64,000 nucleotides of DNA. Origin: Candidatus Heimdallarchaeum endolithica. GTDB lineage: Archaea; Asgardarchaeota; Heimdallarchaeia; Heimdallarchaeales; Heimdallarchaeaceae. Every line of letters begins with the position of its first letter. Within the stretch, counting starts at the first letter, position 1. This document shows positions 41,224 to 54,761 of this stretch, piece by piece. Below the pieces are notes generated by a model. That model searched no databases. It was not told where the DNA came from and was given only the letters and a program-made list of their open reading frames with translations. Position numbers and translations under genes: made by a program. The stretch covers positions 128,001 to 192,000 of the forward strand of contig CP084167.1 in the NCBI GenBank assembly GCA_021513715.1. The letters run 5' to 3'.

Positions 41224-42654
41224 ATGAAGACTATTGACGAGGATATTTTTGATTTACTGCATAAAGCAGTTAATAAAGGATTAGAATTAGGAGCTAATTT
41301 TGTTGAAGCTAGATATGATGACATGAGTTTAATGACAGTTAATCTTCTTAATGAGAGAATAAGAGAGGCTTCCACTAAACTTAGAAAAGGTTTTGGTATA
41401 ATGGCTTATTTTGATGGCTCTCCAGGTTTTTCATTCACTCCAGAAAGAAACTGGGAAAGTATCCATACAACAGTTGAAAATGCTGTTAAAATAGCCAAAG
41501 CAACAGCTCCAAGAAACAAAGTAAAAATGGAATTTGAGCGTCAAAAACCAATAGTTGATAAACAATTTACAGAAGTAAAGAAACACCCCAAAAATATGGA
41601 GTTTAATGAAAAATTATCAATGCTAAAAAGAGGAGTAAAAGCTATAGAAGAAAAAATTCAACCTAGCAGCACAACAGGCCTTTATGGAGAACTATTTGGA
41701 GATAAATATTTTGTTAATTCAGAAGAAAGTGAAATTTTTTGGCAACCTTTGATAGTTGATCTTCGAATACAAGCTATATCTATGGCAGAAGGTAAAAGAG
41801 CTAATGGTATTGATGGTGTTGGTTCATCTCTTGGTTTAGAATTATTCGATAAAGAAGAATATCTTCCAGAAACTATAGGAAGCAATGCTGGAAAATATTG
41901 TAAAGAACAATCAGAAGCAAAAGCAATTAAAGCAGGAAAACAAAAAGCTCTCATTGGATGGAGATTAGGTGGAGTATTAGCCCATGAATCCTTTGGTCAT
42001 TTATCTGAAAGCGATTTTGTTGTAACTGGAATGTCTCCATTATCAGATAAAATAGGGGAGGTTTTGGGAACAGAAATGACAACAATAATTGATGAAGGAA
42101 CAATACCTAGAGAAACAAATGGTTTATGGCTTCCTTATGATGATCAAGGAATCAAGACTGATAAAACTGTTCTATTAGAAAAAGGAATACTAAAAGGGTA
42201 TCTACACAACAGGGGTACAGCTAAAAAGATGAATGCAGAACCAACTGGAAATTCACGAGCTATTACTTTTATGTATCCACCTATTCCTAGAATGAAAAAC
42301 ACCTATTTTGCTCCTGGTGATTTGAGTCTTGAAGAAGCACTAGAACAGCTTAAAGATGGTTTTTATGCTGTTTCTTCTTCAGGTGGGCAAGTAGGTTTAG
42401 ATGGAAACTTCTTGTTTAATTGTAACAGAGGTTATTGGGTTGAAAATGGGGAAATAAAATATGCAGTAAGAGATTCTTCTCTATCTGGAAATATCTTGGA
42501 ATTAATCAAACATGTTCAAGGAGTAACTAAAGATTTCAACATTATGACAGGCTATTTTGGTGGATGCGGAAAAAGTGGACAATTTCCATTACCAGTTGGT
42601 CTAGGAGGAGCAGAATTACTTGTAGATGAAGTTTTAGTCGGAGGTGCAAAATAA
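41224..42654 (+). CDS. tldD: TldD metalloprotease subunit
   Basis: LAHESFGHLSESD, YDDQG, PIPRMKNTY, GCGKSGQ. Confidence 0.93.
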   Translation: MKTIDEDIFDLLHKAVNKGLELGANFVEARYDDMSLMTVNLLNERIREASTKLRKGFGIMAYFDGSPGFSFTPERNWESIHTTVENAVKIAKATAPRNKVKMEFERQKPIVDKQFTEVKKHPKNMEFNEKLSMLKRGVKAIEEKIQPSSTTGLYGELFGDKYFVNSEESEIFWQPLIVDLRIQAISMAEGKRANGIDGVGSSLGLELFDKEEYLPETIGSNAGKYCKEQSEAKAIKAGKQKALIGWRLGGVLAHESFGHLSESDFVVTGMSPLSDKIGEVLGTEMTTIIDEGTIPRETNGLWLPYDDQGIKTDKTVLLEKGILKGYLHNRGTAKKMNAEPTGNSRAITFMYPPIPRMKNTYFAPGDLSLEEALEQLKDGFYAVSSSGGQVGLDGNFLFNCNRGYWVENGEIKYAVRDSSLSGNILELIKHVQGVTKDFNIMTGYFGGCGKSGQFPLPVGLGGAELLVDEVLVGGAK

Positions 42655-44030
42655 TGGAATTAGAAGATATTAGAGAAAAAATATTGAACATTGCTGATAC
42701 GGCAATTAAATATGCCAGAGATCTAAACATCCCTACAGCAGAAGCTTTTGTATACAATTCATTTGAAACTAGTTTAGAAGAGAATAAAGGTAAAGTTGAC
42801 AGTAGAGATGGTATAGTTCAAGGTGTGGGTATTAGAGTAGCAGTAGGAAAAAGAGTAGGTTTTTCTTCTTGTACTGGCTTTTCTGAAAAATCAATTAAAG
42901 AAGCTTTAGAAAAAGCGCATGCAATTGCTAAAGCTAGTCCTGAAAATCCGCTTTTTGAAAGTTTTGTAAGTGAAAGTAAACAATCCAAAGACGGTATTCT
43001 TGACTCTGAAATTCTTTATCTAACTCCTGAAAAACTAGCTGACAAAGTGTCAGAACTACTTTATCAGGTTGACAAGAATGATCAAAGAATCACAGGTCTA
43101 GCTGTAAATGCAGATAAGGTTGTAAGAGGATATGCTATAGGAACAACAGAAGGATGTCTAGTTTCTACTTTAACAACTGTTTTTGGAGGTTCTGCATATG
43201 CAGTTGTAATGAAAGAAGGAGATAGAAAAACTGCTTCAGAATTTGTTATTAGCAGAAAAAATGAAGATATTAGCGAACTTGGTAAAAAAGCAGTAGCAAA
43301 AGGATTTCAACATTTAGGTTCAAAGCCATTTAATGCTACTGAAGAACTTCCAATTATACTTCATCCCTATACTTCTTCTGCTTTTCTCTCTGTACCTTTT
43401 ATACAATCACTTTCTGGAGCTGCATATGTAGAAAAGAGAAATCCTTTAGGAAACAAGCTAGATAAAAAAATAGCAGATGAGAGGTTTAATTTGATAGACA
43501 GTGGACAAATTCCAGAGAGTCAAAGTACAGTCGCTATTGATGGAGAAGGAAGCCCAGTAGGAGAAACTCAAATAATTGAAAAAGGAATATTGAAAACGTT
43601 TCTCTACGATCGAATGTATGCTAAAGCTGCTAATACTGAGACTACAGCAAATGCAAGCAGAGGGGGAATGATGGGAGGAATTCCTTTCGAAAGTATCCCT
43701 AGTGTTTCACCTAGAAAACTCATTGTTGAACCTGTTCAGAAAAACCTAGAAGAACAGATTGCAGAAATAGATAAGGGTATCTATATTGAAGAAACACCTA
43801 TTGGACTATTTACTGCAAATGTAATTACTGGAGACTTTAGTATAACTTCAAATAACGCTTTCCTAATTGAGAAAGGAGAACTTGCATTTCCTTTGAGATC
43901 AGTGAGCATTGCCGGAAACTATTTCAAAGTTTTTGAAAGCTTCATTTCAATAGGTAACGACTTAATTCAATCTCCTTGGCCCTTAAATGCTCCTTCTATT
44001 TCATTAGAAGATCTTACTATTTCTGGATAA
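42654..44030 (+). CDS. pmbA: PmbA/TldE subunit
   Basis: GIRV..GKRVGF, DGEG, T.NASRG, N.ITGDFS; lacks HExxH. Confidence 0.9.
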   Translation: MELEDIREKILNIADTAIKYARDLNIPTAEAFVYNSFETSLEENKGKVDSRDGIVQGVGIRVAVGKRVGFSSCTGFSEKSIKEALEKAHAIAKASPENPLFESFVSESKQSKDGILDSEILYLTPEKLADKVSELLYQVDKNDQRITGLAVNADKVVRGYAIGTTEGCLVSTLTTVFGGSAYAVVMKEGDRKTASEFVISRKNEDISELGKKAVAKGFQHLGSKPFNATEELPIILHPYTSSAFLSVPFIQSLSGAAYVEKRNPLGNKLDKKIADERFNLIDSGQIPESQSTVAIDGEGSPVGETQIIEKGILKTFLYDRMYAKAANTETTANASRGGMMGGIPFESIPSVSPRKLIVEPVQKNLEEQIAEIDKGIYIEETPIGLFTANVITGDFSITSNNAFLIEKGELAFPLRSVSIAGNYFKVFESFISIGNDLIQSPWPLNAPSISLEDLTISG

Positions 44031-44892: not shown

Positions 44893-45477
44893 TTACATTC
44901 CTAGTTCTACTTTCAGTTTTTCTAAATTGCGTACAAGTTGAAGTGCAAGCTCACTAAAAGCTTTTTCTACATTATCACCAGTTTTTGCACTTGTTTCTAT
45001 ATAAGATACATGGTATCCAGACCATAAGGTTAGCTTTTCAGCATAATCTTCAGCATAATTAATAGGAACTGTTTGAGAATTTTTATCTCTCAAATCAGAC
45101 TTATTACCAATTAAAATTATTGGCACTTTTTTCCCGCCATTATTTTTAATTAATTCGTTTGACCATTTAGGTAAAATTTCATATGTTTCAGGCCTGGAGA
45201 CATCAAAGACTAGTAAAGCACCTTTTGCTCCTCTATAATATGCTTCTCTTACAGCATCAAATCTTAATTGTCCAGCTAGATCCCATATCTGTAAGGTTAT
45301 TTTATAGTAATCTACTTCTAGCTTTTTTACTGCAAAATCAGCACCTACTGTCATCTTATATCCTTCAACGAATTCTTCACCCATATAAGTTCTTTTTAAA
45401 GATGTTTTTCCTACAGCTCCTTCTCCTAGGAGAACAATTTTAAAGATTTTTTGATTTAATGAGTTCATTTGTACCAC
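44893..45477 (-). CDS. Rab-like small GTPase (Ras superfamily)
   Basis: GEGAVGKTS, TVGADF, WDLAGQ, YYRGA, NKSD, ETSAK; no C-terminal Cys prenylation motif. Confidence 0.95.
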   Translation of the reverse strand: MVQMNSLNQKIFKIVLLGEGAVGKTSLKRTYMGEEFVEGYKMTVGADFAVKKLEVDYYKITLQIWDLAGQLRFDAVREAYYRGAKGALLVFDVSRPETYEILPKWSNELIKNNGGKKVPIILIGNKSDLRDKNSQTVPINYAEDYAEKLTLWSGYHVSYIETSAKTGDNVEKAFSELALQLVRNLEKLKVELGM

Positions 45478-48758: not shown

Positions 48759-48953
48759 ATGCAAATTATTGTCAATTCTAAAAAAGAAAAAGAATTACTA
48801 GTTAAACTTCTTGATTTCTTGAATAAGAAGGATTTAGAGCTCTTTCTCTATTTTAAGGACCCTGAATCTTTTAATATTGAAGAAATTTTCGACTCTCTTT
48901 GTGACTGTGATATCCGAATCGATCCAAAAGAAGAGCCAGTCATAATAGAATAA
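48759..48953 (+). CDS. Small hypothetical protein
   Basis: Intergenic ORF co-oriented with the next gene; an AGGAG RBS follows its stop. Confidence 0.55.
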   Translation: MQIIVNSKKEKELLVKLLDFLNKKDLELFLYFKDPESFNIEEIFDSLCDCDIRIDPKEEPVIIE

Positions 48954-48964
48954 GGAGCTAAAAA

Positions 48965-50311
48965 ATGTGGAAGAAAAAACCTTATTGTACTAAATGCAAC
49001 AAAGACACATTATCTATTAACTTTGATCTTTTTTGTCCTTATTGTGGTTCAATTCAAAATATAGACCCTATAGAAGGACCTTCAAAAAATGAGATAAAGA
49101 TAACAAATATGTGGTCATTTAATTCTTTTTTACCTTCTTTAAAGAAAGTTTATTCTCTTTCTGAAGGAAACACACCAGTTCTACATGTTAATAATCTTTC
49201 ATCTTTAAAAGGATTAAAACTTAAACTTGAATTTAGAAACCCAACTGGATCATTCAGAGACCGTGCATCGTCTCTTATTGCTTCTTATCTTTACTCCTCT
49301 TCTATTCTTAAATTAGTTTGTTCTAGTTCTGGTTCTCTAAGCATAAGTTTATCAGCTTACTCTGCATTAGCAGGTTTGGAACTAACCAATATTGTTCCTT
49401 CAAATCTAGAGTTATCAAAGATTGAACAGATGAAAGTATATGGAAGCAAAGTAGTAGAACATGGTTCTACAGTTGAAGAGGCAATAGAGAGAGGAAGAAA
49501 ACTGCAAGAGAGAGGAGTTTTTTTTGCTTCTTCTGACAACATTTTAACTGTAGAAGGACAAAAAACAATAGGTTTAGAAATTGCTCATTCATTTGAAACA
49601 ATAGAAAATATTATCATCCCAAAAGGTTCTGGATCTCTTTTCTATTCCATATATAGAGGCTTTAAAGATGCATTAGCTTCAGGTTGGATTGAACAAATTC
49701 CATCTTTTTTTGCTGTATCATTAAAACACGAAGATTTAGACTTTTATGTGGAATCGCTAAAGATTCCTACACCTCTTACTCTTTCTCAAAAAATAAATGA
49801 AATTCTTTTAGAAAGTAAAGGAAAGGAAATTGAAATTGAAGGAGAAAAAATGATTGACCAAGCTCTTCTTTTAGCAAAAAAAGAAGGACTGTTTATTGAA
49901 CCTGCTTCAGCCTCTGTAGTTGTTGCTGCTAAACAATTACTAGAAAAAGAAGGAATTAATATCGATTCTACAATTGCTCTTCTTTCTGGCTCTGGACTAA
50001 ATGCTTTAAACATATTTGCATCAAAATTAAGAGGAATTAGAAAAGCAGTATGGGGTCTTTCTGAGAAATCAACAACAAAGTTTGAAATATTGGATCTTAT
50101 TTCTCAAAAGAAAGCAAATCATGGTTATGCCATTTGGAAAGCTCTAGGAAAAAGAAAGTCTCTTCAATCAATCTACCAGCATTTAAATGAACTTGAAGAG
50201 AAAAATTTAGTATCTTCAAAAGTCAGAGGAAAAAACAAGAAATACTATTCAATCACAAGAAAAGGAATAGATGCTTACTCAAAAATGAGAGAACTTATTG
50301 ATTTTCTTTAG
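48965..50311 (+). CDS. Threonine synthase-like fold-type II domain (PLP Lys to Arg) fused to a C-terminal PadR wHTH
   Basis: Zn ribbon, SLSEGNTP, NPTGSFRDR, EGQKTIGLEI, EGLFIEPASA; C-terminal FEILDLI..HGYAIWK..SIYQHLNELEEK..KKYYSITRKG. Confidence 0.85.
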   Translation: MWKKKPYCTKCNKDTLSINFDLFCPYCGSIQNIDPIEGPSKNEIKITNMWSFNSFLPSLKKVYSLSEGNTPVLHVNNLSSLKGLKLKLEFRNPTGSFRDRASSLIASYLYSSSILKLVCSSSGSLSISLSAYSALAGLELTNIVPSNLELSKIEQMKVYGSKVVEHGSTVEEAIERGRKLQERGVFFASSDNILTVEGQKTIGLEIAHSFETIENIIIPKGSGSLFYSIYRGFKDALASGWIEQIPSFFAVSLKHEDLDFYVESLKIPTPLTLSQKINEILLESKGKEIEIEGEKMIDQALLLAKKEGLFIEPASASVVVAAKQLLEKEGINIDSTIALLSGSGLNALNIFASKLRGIRKAVWGLSEKSTTKFEILDLISQKKANHGYAIWKALGKRKSLQSIYQHLNELEEKNLVSSKVRGKNKKYYSITRKGIDAYSKMRELIDFL

Positions 50312-50795
50312 TAAACCAGGATAGAATTTTCTTTTTGGCGTTCATTACCTCATCACTTATTTTTCCCATGAATTCCACATTGGAAACTTGAATGCCAATA
50401 AAAACAAATTCTTTACCTTCGTTTTGGATTAATTCCACTAATTGTTTTATTGGAATAGTATGGGTGCTCAAACGTGTTTCTGCAACATTAATACTAGAAG
50501 ATACAATTAAACTTCCTATTTTAGTTTTAATATCACATGCATCAATTATAGTTACGCATTCAATTTTTTCATCTTCTAGAATTGTTAGAAGTTCATTAAT
50601 AGGATCTTCGAATTCTTCACTATAAACATGTGAAAAAAATCTTTTTAATTCTCTAGCTATAAGAAGACCTATAGCATCATCACTTCTATCTAGATTTCCA
50701 AAACAAAGAAAAGCAGTGTGTCCTGGTTTTAGAAAACAAGAAAAAGAAAAAAAGTTCGAATTTTCTTCAGTCAATTCCCCCACTTTATTTTTCAA
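50295..50795 (-). CDS. Hydrogenase maturation protease (HycI-like)
   Basis: GNLDRSDDAIG, IIDA, STHTIP, GIQ. Confidence 0.9.
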   Translation of the reverse strand: MKNKVGELTEENSNFFSFSCFLKPGHTAFLCFGNLDRSDDAIGLLIARELKRFFSHVYSEEFEDPINELLTILEDEKIECVTIIDACDIKTKIGSLIVSSSINVAETRLSTHTIPIKQLVELIQNEGKEFVFIGIQVSNVEFMGKISDEVMNAKKKILSWFTKENQ

Positions 50796-52068
50796 TGAGT
50801 TTTACCATATGACAACTGCAAGAAATACAAGGGTCATAGGCTCTAGCAATCATTTCAAGGTGTAATTCTGTTTCTTCATTTTTCTCTGCGATAAGTTTTT
50901 CTGCTGCTACTCTAATATACTCTTCAACATCATCAAGGAATTGAGCAGTGGGTGTAATAATATCTACGTTGACCATTTTTCCATCTTTAATTTCATAAGA
51001 GTGATAGAGTATTCCTCTAGGAGCTTCAACAGCTGCAGTAGCTTTTCCATTTAAGTTTTTCACTTCCACTATTTCAGAATCAGGAAGAGCTTTTATTTTC
51101 TCTACTAGTTCTGGAATTTGTTCAAAAGACCAGAGAGCTTCAATTGCTTGAGCTAAATTATTGTACAAGGGGTTAACTTTCCATTTTTCAGTATAATATT
51201 TTTCAAATTTTTCTTTAGCTAGTCCTGTCAGTCTATCACCGATTAAAATGAGTCTTGCAAGTGCACCTACAGTAAATGGTTTATCATTGTACCTTGATCT
51301 TTTTGCATAAGAATGAGGAACAACTCTCTCGTTTGTTAGCTTCTTATATTCTTCAACTGGATATTCCTCTCCTGTGGAAATAAGAATAGAATCTCCTTCA
51401 AATCCAAACTCATTATTTGGAGGATTGCAACACATAAATGTTGTTTCTCTCTCACAATAGTCTGGTATTTCAAGCGAAGCTAGAACATCAATAAATGCTG
51501 CCAGTTGTGGAATATATTCTTTTGCTTTTTCTGCAAATTCGTCTAGTTCTTTATTAGTGGGAAGTCTTCCAAACCCTCCTACTTGAGGATTTTCTCCATG
51601 AATCTTTCTCCCCATTAATAGTTTCATCAATTCTGTTCCATACTTCTTCAAAGTTATTGCTTCTACTACAGTCTCTTTGTGTGTAGGAAGTAAAGCAATA
51701 GCACTAGGTTTTCTGAAGAAATCAGGAAGAGCTAAGAAATAAACGTGTAAAATATGTGATTCTATATATTCTGCCAAGTGCAGGAGCTTTCTCAGTAATT
51801 GTATTTTTTCAGGAACTTCAACTTTTAGAGCTTTCTCTATTGCTTTGATTGAAGCATAGCGGTGAGAAACTGTACAAATAGCACAAATCCTTGACACAAG
51901 AGAAACATTCTCTTGAAAAGTCTTTCCTCTTACTAAAGCTTCGATCATTCTTGGTCCTTCAAAAATATCTACTAATACTTGCTCTACTTTATTATTTTTC
52001 ACATATACCTTTATTCCTCCGTCACCCTCAACACGAGAGAGAACTTTTACATTAATACCTTTACTCAT
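50785..52068 (-). CDS. hydA: Group 3b [NiFe] hydrogenase (sulfhydrogenase) large subunit
   Basis: RVEG, SRICAICTVSH (L1), EAPRG, RAYDPCISCSCH (L2) plus cleavable tail. Confidence 0.95.
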   Translation of the reverse strand: MSKGINVKVLSRVEGDGGIKVYVKNNKVEQVLVDIFEGPRMIEALVRGKTFQENVSLVSRICAICTVSHRYASIKAIEKALKVEVPEKIQLLRKLLHLAEYIESHILHVYFLALPDFFRKPSAIALLPTHKETVVEAITLKKYGTELMKLLMGRKIHGENPQVGGFGRLPTNKELDEFAEKAKEYIPQLAAFIDVLASLEIPDYCERETTFMCCNPPNNEFGFEGDSILISTGEEYPVEEYKKLTNERVVPHSYAKRSRYNDKPFTVGALARLILIGDRLTGLAKEKFEKYYTEKWKVNPLYNNLAQAIEALWSFEQIPELVEKIKALPDSEIVEVKNLNGKATAAVEAPRGILYHSYEIKDGKMVNVDIITPTAQFLDDVEEYIRVAAEKLIAEKNEETELHLEMIARAYDPCISCSCHMVKLIEK

Positions 52069-52856
52069 TTTATCACCTTCTCCAATTCCTCTTCTGCTTT
52101 ACTTCCGCCAAATAATTTGAGCTTTCGTAACGCTGTTTCTTTATCTACTCCTATTTCTTCTAGTTTATCAAGCATAGATTTATAGTTCGCTGCTTCATAA
52201 GGACCCCAACAGCCAACACAAGGAAGATTGTGACTAGGACAAATGGCTCCGCAACCAGCTGATACTACAGGTCCTATACAAGGAATTCCATGTAGTAAAA
52301 GACAATCATTACCTTCTAGTTTACACTCAACACAAACAGGTGCAGGATATTTTTGAGGCTTAATTCCTTTTATTAATTTAGTGTAAATTGGCAAAAGATT
52401 ATCTTTTTCTATAGGACATCCTGGAACCATGGCATCGACTTTTACAAAGTTGCACAAAGGTTGAGGAGGAATGGCTTCTCCAACAGTGAAATCTTCCTTC
52501 TTGATATTTGAGCCATATACATGTTTAAATCTCTCCTCAAAAGCTTTATCTTTTTCATTCAAATATTGAATCCCTCCAAAACATGCACAAGTTCCTAATG
52601 CAACGAGAAAAGTAGATTTTTCACGTATTTCTTTTAACTCTTCGAGCTGTTTCTTAGTATTTATACTACCTTCAACTAGTGCAATATCTACATGGTCAAC
52701 TTCTTGATGAGATTGGGCCATATGGAAGAATTTGATCTCTGCAGTAGTAAACAATGTAACTAATTCATCTTCCATATGAACTAAACGCAACTGATCACCA
52801 GCACAACCACTGAAACCAAAAACACCAACAACAGGTTTATGTTCACTTGTCCACAT
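52065..52856 (-). CDS. hydD: Sulfhydrogenase small (delta) subunit
   Basis: GCAGD, GTCACFGG, PGCP, VCVECK, CIGPV..GC..CP..C.GCWGP. Confidence 0.92.
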   Translation of the reverse strand: MWTSEHKPVVGVFGFSGCAGDQLRLVHMEDELVTLFTTAEIKFFHMAQSHQEVDHVDIALVEGSINTKKQLEELKEIREKSTFLVALGTCACFGGIQYLNEKDKAFEERFKHVYGSNIKKEDFTVGEAIPPQPLCNFVKVDAMVPGCPIEKDNLLPIYTKLIKGIKPQKYPAPVCVECKLEGNDCLLLHGIPCIGPVVSAGCGAICPSHNLPCVGCWGPYEAANYKSMLDKLEEIGVDKETALRKLKLFGGSKAEEELEKVIK

Positions 52857-52857
52857 C

Positions 52858-53718
52858 TTAAATCAACTCTACCATTCGTTCATAATCCCAGAAGTTAAAA
52901 ACTGGTCCGTCCAAGCAAGTATAAACACCATGGATTGCACAATGTCCACAATGTCCTTGACCACATTTCATTCTTCTTTCTAGCGTCATCAGTATATTTT
53001 TCTTTGAAAAATCCATTTCTAGTAATTCTTTAATAACGAATTTATACATAACTGGAGGTCCACAGATTAAAGCGTAAGCATTGTCGTTATCCACTCTTCC
53101 ATTTATTTTCTCAAATAATGTCGTTACTACTCCAACATTATGGTTCCATTCTCCAGTAGGATCTTTATCAACTGTCAAATGAGTTTCGATTATCTCTCTT
53201 GCGTGCATTGCTAAAAAGTCTTCTTTAAAAAGCATATCATCTGGCGTTCTAGCTCCATTTAGGAAGAATACATTATTATATAATTCTCTTTTATCTTCAA
53301 GATAAAGTAAAACAGATCTTAAAGGTACAGCTCCTAGTCCTCCACTCACTATAACAATGTCTTTTCCTTCCATACGTTCCATGTCAAAACCGTTTCCATA
53401 AGGTCCTCTAATGTAGACAGTATCTCCTTCTTTTTTCTTAAAAAGAGCATCAGTAAATGAACCTACTTTTCTAATTCCAAATTCTAGAAAAGCTGGTCTT
53501 GTTGGAGTCGATGATATAGAGAATGGAGCTTCTCCAACCCCTGGAATAGAGAACATAGCAAACTGTCCTGGTCTGTAATCACCAGTATGCTTTTGTATCT
53601 CAGGATCAACAAATTTCAACTTATAATACCTTGTATCGCTTGTCAAATCGCGATAATCAATTATTGTAGCTAAATGATCCTCATATGGATTTTCTAATTT
53701 TGATCTATCTGATATCAT
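52858..53718 (-). CDS. hydG: Sulfhydrogenase gamma subunit (FAD/NAD(P), 2Fe-2S)
   Basis: PGQF, GEAPFSISS, RGPYGNGF, GGLG, CGPPVM, ERRMKCGQGHCGHC. Confidence 0.92.
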   Translation of the reverse strand: MISDRSKLENPYEDHLATIIDYRDLTSDTRYYKLKFVDPEIQKHTGDYRPGQFAMFSIPGVGEAPFSISSTPTRPAFLEFGIRKVGSFTDALFKKKEGDTVYIRGPYGNGFDMERMEGKDIVIVSGGLGAVPLRSVLLYLEDKRELYNNVFFLNGARTPDDMLFKEDFLAMHAREIIETHLTVDKDPTGEWNHNVGVVTTLFEKINGRVDNDNAYALICGPPVMYKFVIKELLEMDFSKKNILMTLERRMKCGQGHCGHCAIHGVYTCLDGPVFNFWDYERMVELI

Positions 53719-54761
53719 ATTTTCTTAACCTCCCGAACACATTGAATCGCTTCGTAAAAAGCATTTGATACTGTTTTAACATTTATTCCAACTGGACAAT
53801 AAGTTACACATCTTCCGCAACCAACACAAGCTGGTTGACCCCATTTTCCAATATACTCTTTTAATTTATGAGTGTAATAGAGCTTTAGTCTCTTTGTCCT
53901 ATCAGGCCTAAAATCATGATCCCCTGCTACTACTGAATAGTAAGGTAGAGTACAACTATCTAACATTCTTTCTCTTACTACTTCATCAGCATTAATAAGT
54001 ATCTTATCTTCAACATTAAAACAGTTACATGTTGGGCATACAAGACTGCAAGTTCCGCAACTTAGACATTTTTCTCCAAATTGATTCCAAAGTTCATCTT
54101 TTTCATAAATTAAGTGAATTATATCAGGCATTAGATGGAAAGGTATAGTTGTTTTGAAAGAATTTTGTCTGTTTTCTTGCCAAGTTGTGTATTCTGCTAT
54201 ATCACACATATCTATTTTTTCACTAAACAAATCTTCTGAAGACATAATAATAAATAATCCTTTACTAGATCCTACCCATACTAAGTAGAAATCTTGTAAT
54301 TCTGTCAAAAACAAGTCAAATCCATCTGATACCATATCAGTTCCTGTTGAAGTACATAGACAATTCTCATCTGGCATACAGGAGTGTCCTACAATTACTA
54401 AGTTTTCTCTACGTTTTTTATAGTATGGATCCTTGATCTGTCCTAGGAATAATTTATCAAGAATTTTCATTGCATGAATATCACAAGGATGAGCACCAAT
54501 TACAATATTTGTCTCATTTTCTGGGATTATATCCTCTGAACCAGATTTGTCAAAATGCTTTACTTTATATCTGGGAGGAGTAACAAATTTCTTTAACCCC
54601 ATCAAGGTCCTTGTGTAGTTGAAAGTCAACTTAGACAAATCATCAATCTTTTCAAAAGAATAATGATTTTTTGACTTTACTGGACCATATAGATTCCCCT
54701 TCTCCTGCAGAAGACTTAGAAATTGAGGAAAATCTTCTTTCATTAATTTATAGGTCTTCAT
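53715..54761 (-). CDS. hydB: Sulfhydrogenase beta subunit (4Fe-4S dicluster)
   Basis: HPCD, CLSCGTCSLVCPTCNCF, CVGCGRCVTYCP. Confidence 0.92.
   Translation of the reverse strand: MKTYKLMKEDFPQFLSLLQEKGNLYGPVKSKNHYSFEKIDDLSKLTFNYTRTLMGLKKFVTPPRYKVKHFDKSGSEDIIPENETNIVIGAHPCDIHAMKILDKLFLGQIKDPYYKKRRENLVIVGHSCMPDENCLCTSTGTDMVSDGFDLFLTELQDFYLVWVGSSKGLFIIMSSEDLFSEKIDMCDIAEYTTWQENRQNSFKTTIPFHLMPDIIHLIYEKDELWNQFGEKCLSCGTCSLVCPTCNCFNVEDKILINADEVVRERMLDSCTLPYYSVVAGDHDFRPDRTKRLKLYYTHKLKEYIGKWGQPACVGCGRCVTYCPVGINVKTVSNAFYEAIQCVREVKKI

What the first reader, a model, noticed from the sequence alone, without database searches (positions are those of the whole stretch)
48965..50311. Threonine-synthase pseudoenzyme fused to PadR: an enzyme repurposed as a transcription factor
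Seen: the Schiff-base motif NPTGSFKDR reads NPTGSFRDR (codon AGA), SSGN reads SSGS, and the phosphate loop reads PKGSGS. A complete PadR-like wHTH is fused at the C-terminus. Established: that Lys is required for PLP catalysis. Inference: a sensor for PLP or an amino acid (for example phosphohomoserine, threonine or cysteate) coupled to DNA binding. The Lys in PKG might alternatively be a migrated catalytic residue.
Basis: partly seen in the sequence, partly recalled or inferred. Interest (0 to 1): 0.7.

Follow-up and report, generated by a model that had tools for sequence, protein, structure and literature searches.

The report
Dead enzyme turned vitamin B6 repressor
This archaeal gene, whose family databases label 'threonine synthase', is an enzyme copy that lost its catalytic lysine and gained a DNA-binding domain; it most likely switches off vitamin B6 uptake and synthesis genes through a palindromic DNA site, and I found no paper describing a B6 regulator in Archaea.

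Summary
Observation confirmed. The 448-aa ORF is a Zn-ribbon + threonine-synthase fold + PadR wHTH with Arg98 (AGA) at the Schiff-base lysine. Arg is fixed in 120/121 close homologs, so it is no error; the 'migrated Lys220' is not conserved. The family spans Asgard, Bathyarchaeia, Thermoprotei and Thermococcales (NCBI PRK05638). Its gene lies near a PdxU2/HmpT-type ECF S-component gene in 47/69 loci and beside pdxST in four. A 22-bp palindrome (core CAAG-N6-CTTG) sits just behind the TATA box of that importer gene and of pdxS. In this genome the two best sites genome-wide lie in tandem before the importer, 260 kb away; pdxS and homoserine dehydrogenase were not found. The site tracks the regulator: Asgard 20/22 versus 1/23; Thermococcales 17/20 versus 1/10 (importer) and 16/21 versus 2/9 (pdxS). 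The clearest exception carries a frameshifted copy. Best reading: a dimeric, B6-sensing repressor working like bacterial PdxR but built from another fold (about 0.78). DNA and ligand binding are inferred, not shown. One Loki-type clade regained Lys. The scan found this family before on other DNA; its B6 lead was retested here. Testable in Pyrococcus furiosus (Q8U123).

The parts
48965..50311 (+). Gene for the 448-aa ThrC-fold pseudoenzyme / PadR-type wHTH fusion (candidate B6-sensing repressor)
48986..49045 (+). N-terminal Zn ribbon, C8/C11/C24/C27; inherited from archaeal ThrC-like proteins
   Evidence: 87-93% Cys in the large groups with and without wHTH
49154..49984 (+). Fold-type II PLP (PALP) domain, residues 64-340; putative B6 sensor and dimer interface
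   Evidence: (best PDB folds are threonine synthases)
49256..49258 (+). Arg98 (AGA) in place of the Schiff-base lysine
49325..49336 (+). Altered substrate/PLP-O3' loop SSGS (ThrC: TGN); G123 invariant, Ser124 for Asn
49619..49636 (+). Gly-rich PLP-phosphate loop PKGSGS; G221 and G223 conserved, Lys220 not conserved
49985..49987 (+). Ser341, equivalent of the pyridine-N1-binding Thr of ThrC; T or S in about 99% of the family
   Evidence: role from known ThrC structures (own knowledge)
50063..50308 (+). PadR-like winged helix-turn-helix, residues 367-448, recognition helix 400-412
48759..48953 (+). 64-aa ORF of unknown function 11 bp upstream, probably co-transcribed; role in the system not shown
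   Evidence: (present in all 11 flank loci of the window's family and in L011)

Best explanation
The protein is a one-component, B6-responsive transcriptional repressor. SHOWN: a ThrC fold lacking the catalytic Lys but keeping the PLP phosphate loop and pyridine-N contact; a fused, conserved wHTH; a palindromic site (TATwCAAG-N6-CTTGwATA and lineage variants) directly behind the TATA box of an HmpT/PdxU2-type ECF importer gene and of pdxS; co-occurrence of site and gene. INFERRED: the ThrC-type dimer presents two wHTHs to the two half-sites about one helical turn apart; a B6 vitamer (PLP, PMP or PNP) binds non-covalently in the retained pocket and, most plausibly, promotes DNA binding, so that uptake and synthesis are shut off when B6 is plentiful. 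In this genome, where pdxS was not found, the regulon appears to be just the ECF importer operon at G000 C1:436214-439409, with two tandem sites at 439410-439451.
For: Arg in 120/121 rows. Among wHTH-bearing rows 164 Arg, 95 other non-Lys, 19 Lys; rows without wHTH 93% Lys. No homoserine dehydrogenase found in the genome, so no threonine pathway to serve (93% complete, one contig). S-component gene (PF07155) within about 6 kb in 47/69 loci, pdxST adjacent or nearly so in 4, and within 1.5 kb in 16/29 Thermoprotei-type loci. The only PDB sequence match of the genome's S component is 4HZU_S, E 4.8e-9, with Glu41 kept; that this chain is HmpT is my own knowledge; HmpT binds pyridoxamine (PMC4860826), and PdxU and PdxU2/HmpT are PF07155 (PMC9997740). 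A matrix trained without this genus ranks the two importer-promoter sites first and second in 3.3 Mb (26.9 and 21.8 bits; shuffles reach at most 17.6). The same site precedes pdxS in three Asgard genomes (27-32 bits). Site versus regulator presence with an untrained core pattern: Asgard 20/22 vs 1/23, Thermococcales importer 17/20 vs 1/10, pdxS 16/21 vs 2/9. The one 'regulator-less' genome with the site at both promoters has a frameshifted copy. Homodimer model ipSAE 0.88 against best control 0.00 (mark reached by 20/30 true homodimers and 1/23 monomers; runs agree in at least 92% of contacts, pLDDT at least 84); this probably reflects likeness to solved ThrC dimers.
Against: No binding or expression data: protein-DNA and protein-B6 contacts are inferred. 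Genomes are related, so the co-occurrence tables overstate significance. Several regulator-less Asgard S genes lie inside operons and are weak controls. The Asgard counts partly reuse the genomes from which the motif was read. One regulator-bearing genome (G041) lacks the site before its S gene, and pdxS in L158 lacks it. The importer residue matching HmpT His84 is Lys. panB lies directly upstream of the importer in this genus. No PdxK/ThiD-family kinase was found in the genome, so the route from imported vitamer to PLP is unexplained. Whether ligand strengthens or weakens DNA binding is not determined by these data.
Confidence: 0.78

Rival explanations
1. It is the regulator that reads this operator, but it senses something other than B6 (a thiamine pyrimidine precursor, pantothenate, or an O-phospho-amino acid), or it needs no ligand.
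For: HmpT was first proposed as a hydroxymethylpyrimidine transporter (PMC4860826). panB adjoins the importer here. Lys152, a substrate-phosphate ligand in ThrC by my own knowledge, is conserved. Asn of the PLP-O3' loop is Ser in the Asgard clade.
Against: The same operator sits on pdxS, the PLP synthase, in Asgard and Thermococcales. panB is next to the S gene only in this genus, 2 of about 130 loci. The PLP phosphate loop and Thr/Ser341 are kept, while the Asn and Arg of the substrate-phosphate site (Ser189, Thr195 here) are lost.
Confidence: 0.11
2. The palindrome is read by another factor; the fusion protein is a B6 store, chaperone or co-regulator that only travels with B6 genes.
For: No direct binding shown. 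In this genome the gene is 260 kb from the importer and has no site in its own promoter. The dimer model lists no confident contacts in the wHTH region.
Against: The site is lost where the gene is lost, even between closely related Thermococcales with orthologous promoters. The recognition helix is highly conserved. No other regulator recurs directly beside the importer across lineages.
Confidence: 0.07
3. It is still an enzyme (threonine or cysteate synthase, or another PLP reaction) using a relocated lysine, or a bifunctional enzyme-regulator like RbkR.
For: Database label 'threonine synthase' (PRK05638). Fold intact. D99, R100, K152 and K200 are conserved, and one clade has Lys at the canonical site.
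Against: The canonical position tolerates R, I, L, V, M, T, F and others. Lys220 is not conserved. The genome lacks homoserine dehydrogenase and has a separate Lys-bearing ThrC-like gene. Many Thermococcales carry an ordinary ThrC as well.
Confidence: 0.04

Closest known systems
Bacterial PdxR and other MocR/GabR-subfamily regulators (PMC5320631)
   Same: A PLP-enzyme fold reused as a sensor and fused to a wHTH; regulon core pdxST plus a pdxU-type transporter.
   Different: MocR uses an N-terminal GntR wHTH and a fold-type I aminotransferase domain, usually with the PLP lysine kept (own knowledge). This protein uses fold-type II, a C-terminal PadR wHTH and mostly no lysine. The paper states that MocR factors are not present in Archaea.
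Threonine synthase ThrC (Thermus 1UIN, Aquifex 2ZSJ, Bacillus 6NMX) and NCBIfam PRK05638
   Same: Same fold (TM 0.80 by target, 24-28% identity) and a predicted homodimer. The P. furiosus ortholog passes the PRK05638 cut-off at 822.9 bits.
   Different: Schiff-base Lys replaced, substrate-site Asn and Arg lost, wHTH added. PRK05638 appears to model this regulator family and to be misnamed. The window protein scores 261 bits, under the cut-off of 421.
Archaeal enzyme-derived vitamin regulators ThiR and RbkR (named in PMC10746257, PMC8305020)
   Same: An HTH fused to a cofactor-pathway enzyme fold, controlling vitamin synthesis or uptake in Archaea.
   Different: Different vitamins and unrelated domains. 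RbkR stays an active kinase; the sensor here comes from a PLP-using enzyme, not from the vitamin's own pathway.
PadR-family repressors (PadR, LmrR, AphA)
   Same: wHTH matches PF03551 above the cut-off; palindromic operator.
   Different: Classical PadR proteins are small and dimerise through C-terminal helices (own knowledge); here the modelled interface is formed by the PALP domain and linker helix.

Membership tests
Threonine synthase (ThrC, EC 4.2.3.1) | Fold-type II PALP domain | tested here: met
Threonine synthase (ThrC, EC 4.2.3.1) | Schiff-base lysine in the SFKDR motif | tested here: not met
   Arg98
Threonine synthase (ThrC, EC 4.2.3.1) | Substrate-site residues (TGN loop; Asn and Arg that bind substrate phosphate) | tested here: not met
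   SSGS, Ser189 and Thr195 against the Aquifex and Bacillus enzymes. Roles from own knowledge.
Threonine synthase (ThrC, EC 4.2.3.1) | Upstream pathway (homoserine dehydrogenase) in the genome | tested here: not met
   PF00742 not found; genome 93% complete
Threonine synthase (ThrC, EC 4.2.3.1) | Catalytic turnover | not testable with these tools
   needs an assay
MocR/PdxR regulators | N-terminal GntR wHTH plus fold-type I aminotransferase domain | tested here: not met
   PALP + C-terminal PadR
MocR/PdxR regulators | Regulon of pdxST and pdxU-type transporter (works-like criterion) | tested here: met
   PMC5320631 section 11
MocR/PdxR regulators | PLP binding modulates DNA binding | not testable with these tools
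   pocket residues conserved; no binding data
PadR-like wHTH domain (PF03551) | Profile match above the curated cut-off and wHTH topology | tested here: met
   40.5 bits vs 27; helices and wing in the model
PadR-like wHTH domain (PF03551) | Binds a palindromic operator | tested here: inconclusive
   candidate operator found and co-occurring; binding itself not measured
NCBIfam PRK05638 (NF004170) | Score above 421 bits | tested here: not met
   261 bits, best family, full length; the Thermococcales ortholog passes

The most novel reading that the evidence does not exclude
This is the archaeal vitamin B6 transcription factor: an ancient family spanning several archaeal phyla, built independently of PdxR from a fold-type II pseudoenzyme. 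It senses B6 without a Schiff base in most lineages, while one Loki-type clade regained the lysine, giving a natural comparison of covalent and non-covalent sensing. A bolder extension (about 0.2) is that genomes like this one, with neither pdxS nor a PdxK-family kinase found, import a phosphorylated vitamer or use an unknown kinase.
Probability: 0.75. Interest if true: 0.8.

Novelty: new variant of a known kind. Interest (0 to 1): 0.72.

Why it matters
It would fill a gap in archaeal cofactor regulation: regulators are known for thiamine and riboflavin, but I found none for B6, and MocR/PdxR is reported absent from Archaea. It would correct a widespread annotation (PRK05638 'threonine synthase') that inflates predicted threonine synthesis in Thermococcales, Bathyarchaeia and Asgard genomes. 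It gives a case of convergent recruitment of a second PLP fold as a sensor. Regulator, operator and targets are all defined, so it is directly testable in a cultured, genetically tractable archaeon (P. furiosus, AAL81530.1 / Q8U123). The operator also supports B6 as the substrate of archaeal PF07155 importers.

Tried and rejected
Sequencing error or private mutation: rejected. Migrated Lys220: rejected. Autoregulation: no site upstream of this gene (best -5.4 bits); sites upstream of orthologs occur only where the promoter is shared with divergent pdxS. Local neighbours as targets (acyl-CoA ligase, hydrogenase operon): conserved only within the family and carrying no site. Third-ranked site under the general matrix at G000 996064 borders a transposase-like ORF and scores within the shuffle range under the first matrix; not counted. 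Pantothenate reading of the importer: panB adjacency is genus-specific. My first tally from 50%-identity representatives (2 Lys among about 96 wHTH rows) overstated the link between fusion and Lys loss; a Lys-bearing clade appeared. The search for related loci on genome contigs was swamped by ordinary ThrC. Literature searches found no description of this family (one search timed out). Aravind and Koonin 1999, which from memory surveys archaeal HTH fusions, was not available, and RegPrecise could not be checked, so earlier mention of the fusion or regulon is not excluded. The complex model does not score PLP placement.

Full report
Observation. The ORF at 48965-50311 encodes 448 aa. It has an N-terminal four-cysteine Zn ribbon, a PALP domain at 64-340 and a PadR match at 375-437 above the curated cut-off. 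The AlphaFold model is confident (pLDDT 92.3) and its best structural matches are bacterial threonine synthases. Alignment to the Aquifex and Bacillus enzymes puts Arg98 on the PLP lysine, Ser124 on the loop Asn, Lys220 on a Val and Thr195 on the Arg before EGQKT. The codon is AGA at 49256.

Organism. The closest homologs are named Ca. Heimdallarchaeaceae, so the window is from an Asgard archaeon. The genome is one 3.33-Mb contig, 93% complete.

Family. Arg stands in 120 of 121 aligned rows and is encoded by AGA, AGG, CGA, CGT and CGC, which shows selection on the residue. In a wider, partly redundant set, wHTH-bearing rows have Arg (164), other non-Lys residues (95, mostly I, L, V) or Lys (19), while rows without the wHTH are 93% Lys. 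On trees built from the PALP domain alone the fusions fall on one branch (FastTree 0.97, with one row just outside; SH-aLRT 88). That branch splits into a hydrophobic clade (98) and an Arg clade (100), and the main Lys-bearing group (99) is nested inside the Arg clade. Regain of Lys is the simplest reading; these were quick trees and no AU test was run. The family was found in at least 89 of 251 Asgard genomes with a single query, in Thermoprotei-type genomes and full-length in 43 of 61 Thermococcales. The P. furiosus, P. horikoshii and P. abyssi orthologs carry the same Arg motif and are annotated threonine synthase; the P. furiosus protein passes the PRK05638 cut-off.

What is kept and lost. 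The phosphate-loop glycines (221, 223), Phe97, Asp99, Arg100, Glu312 and Thr/Ser341 are conserved; Lys220 is not (R 52%, M, T in the Arg group). By my knowledge of ThrC structures, this keeps the PLP phosphate and pyridine contacts and removes the covalent anchor and part of the substrate site. In the wHTH, Y404, H406, L407, L410 and G434 are 90-98% conserved. The genome has no detectable homoserine dehydrogenase, so a threonine synthase would have no pathway, and it holds a separate Lys-bearing ThrC-like gene.

Targets. Earlier scan notes suggested a B6 link; I treated that as a lead and tested it. In 69 loci, an ECF S-component gene (PF07155) lies within about 6 kb in 47, often adjacent, and pdxST lies beside the gene in four. 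In Thermoprotei-type genomes the S gene is within 1.5 kb in 16 of 29 loci. This genome keeps its single PF07155 gene with ECF A and T partners at C1:436214-439409, about 260 kb from the window, and pdxS was not found. The S component's only PDB match is 4HZU_S, the HmpT structure by my knowledge; HmpT binds pyridoxamine (PMC4860826), and PdxU and PdxU2/HmpT belong to PF07155 (PMC9997740).

Operator. Upstream of the S gene in the window's family lies a 22-bp palindrome, TATwCAAG-N6-CTTGwATA, a few bases behind the BRE/TATA element. A matrix trained without this genus ranks two tandem copies at C1:439410 and 439430 first and second in the genome (21.8 and 26.9 bits; three shuffles reach at most 17.6). 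The same site precedes pdxS in three Asgard genomes, and a variant with TATATAAG arms occurs in other Asgard lineages. With a general matrix, sites of 12 bits or more occur in 9 of 16 held-out regulator-bearing loci, 0 of 23 S genes from genomes without a full-length regulator, and 4 of 518 unrelated genes. Thermococcales were not used for training: pdxS promoters score a median of 10.9 bits with the regulator and -8.0 without, and S promoters 8.3 and -12.1. An untrained core pattern gives 16/21 vs 2/9, 17/20 vs 1/10 and, in Asgard, 20/22 vs 1/23. The one genome classed as regulator-less that has the site at both promoters carries a frameshifted copy, 92-97% identical to a neighbour's. Kin are not independent, some negative S genes lie inside operons, and G041 and L158 are exceptions.

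Mechanism. A homodimer is supported (ipSAE 0.88, best control 0.00; mark reached by 20/30 true homodimers and 1/23 monomers; at least 92% contact agreement; pLDDT at least 84), through the PALP domain, probably by likeness to solved ThrC dimers. A dimer fits a palindrome with half-sites about one turn apart. A site immediately downstream of TATA is where archaeal repressors block polymerase recruitment (established knowledge). Since the targets make and import B6 and the PLP pocket is kept, the likeliest logic is co-repression by a non-covalently bound vitamer. DNA binding, ligand identity and the direction of the effect are inferred.

Comparison and novelty. It works like bacterial PdxR, whose core regulon is pdxST and pdxU (PMC5320631), but it is not a MocR member, and that paper reports MocR factors absent from Archaea. 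It parallels ThiR and RbkR as an enzyme-derived archaeal vitamin regulator. The domain pair is already visible in databases, but I found no paper assigning it this role; my library lacks most subscription journals. I class it as a new variant of a known kind. This scan reported the same family and the B6 idea on other Asgard DNA. The tests run here are the genome-wide ranking of the operator in a genome where regulator and importer are unlinked, the loss of the site in regulator-less relatives, the extension to cultured Thermococcales, and the Lys-regain clade.

Verdict. Real, conserved and probably mis-annotated across Archaea. B6-sensing repressor 0.78; interest 0.72.

Noticed in passing
window 48759-48953 (+): 64-aa acidic ORF directly upstream of the regulator in every flank locus of this family, absent from other Asgard lineages examined; no Pfam or Atlas match.
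   Followed up: partly
G000 whole genome: Neither pdxS (PF01680) nor a PdxK/ThiD-family kinase (PF08543) was found, although a B6-type importer is present; two PfkB-family genes are candidates for the missing vitamer kinase.
   Followed up: partly
L146-L177 (Loki-type family f13): Regulator orthologs with Lys back at the Schiff-base site, still adjacent to the S gene and with multiple overlapping operator copies.
   Followed up: partly
L377 (G458 C1:1996288-1997570): Regulator split by a frameshift while operators at pdxS and the S gene persist: recent pseudogene or sequencing error.
   Followed up: no
window 50295-54761 (-): Sulfhydrogenase-like NiFe hydrogenase operon (four subunits) with a HycI maturation protease overlapping the regulator's 3' end by 17 bp.
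   Followed up: no
window 44893-45477 (-): Rab/Ras-like small GTPase, an Asgard eukaryotic-signature protein; upstream of it a TldD/PmbA pair at 41224-44030.
   Followed up: no
L005/L003 (G000 C1:3168456-3184881): Cluster resembling a purine or xanthine catabolism locus (Mo-hydroxylase-like subunits, carbamoyltransferase, amidohydrolases) with two PALP enzymes, one a Lys-bearing ThrC-like protein; assignments from N-terminal sequence only.
   Followed up: no
L182:9494-11387: panB and a DNA methyltransferase lie just upstream of the ECF importer; panB adjacency is limited to this genus.
   Followed up: partly
L302-L316 (Thermococcales): The regulator gene lies directly downstream of a metallo-beta-lactamase/beta-CASP (aCPSF1-like) gene in all 15 loci.
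   Followed up: no
L271:2684-3829: Fragmented transposase-like ORFs next to a weak operator-like sequence at G000 996064.
   Followed up: partly
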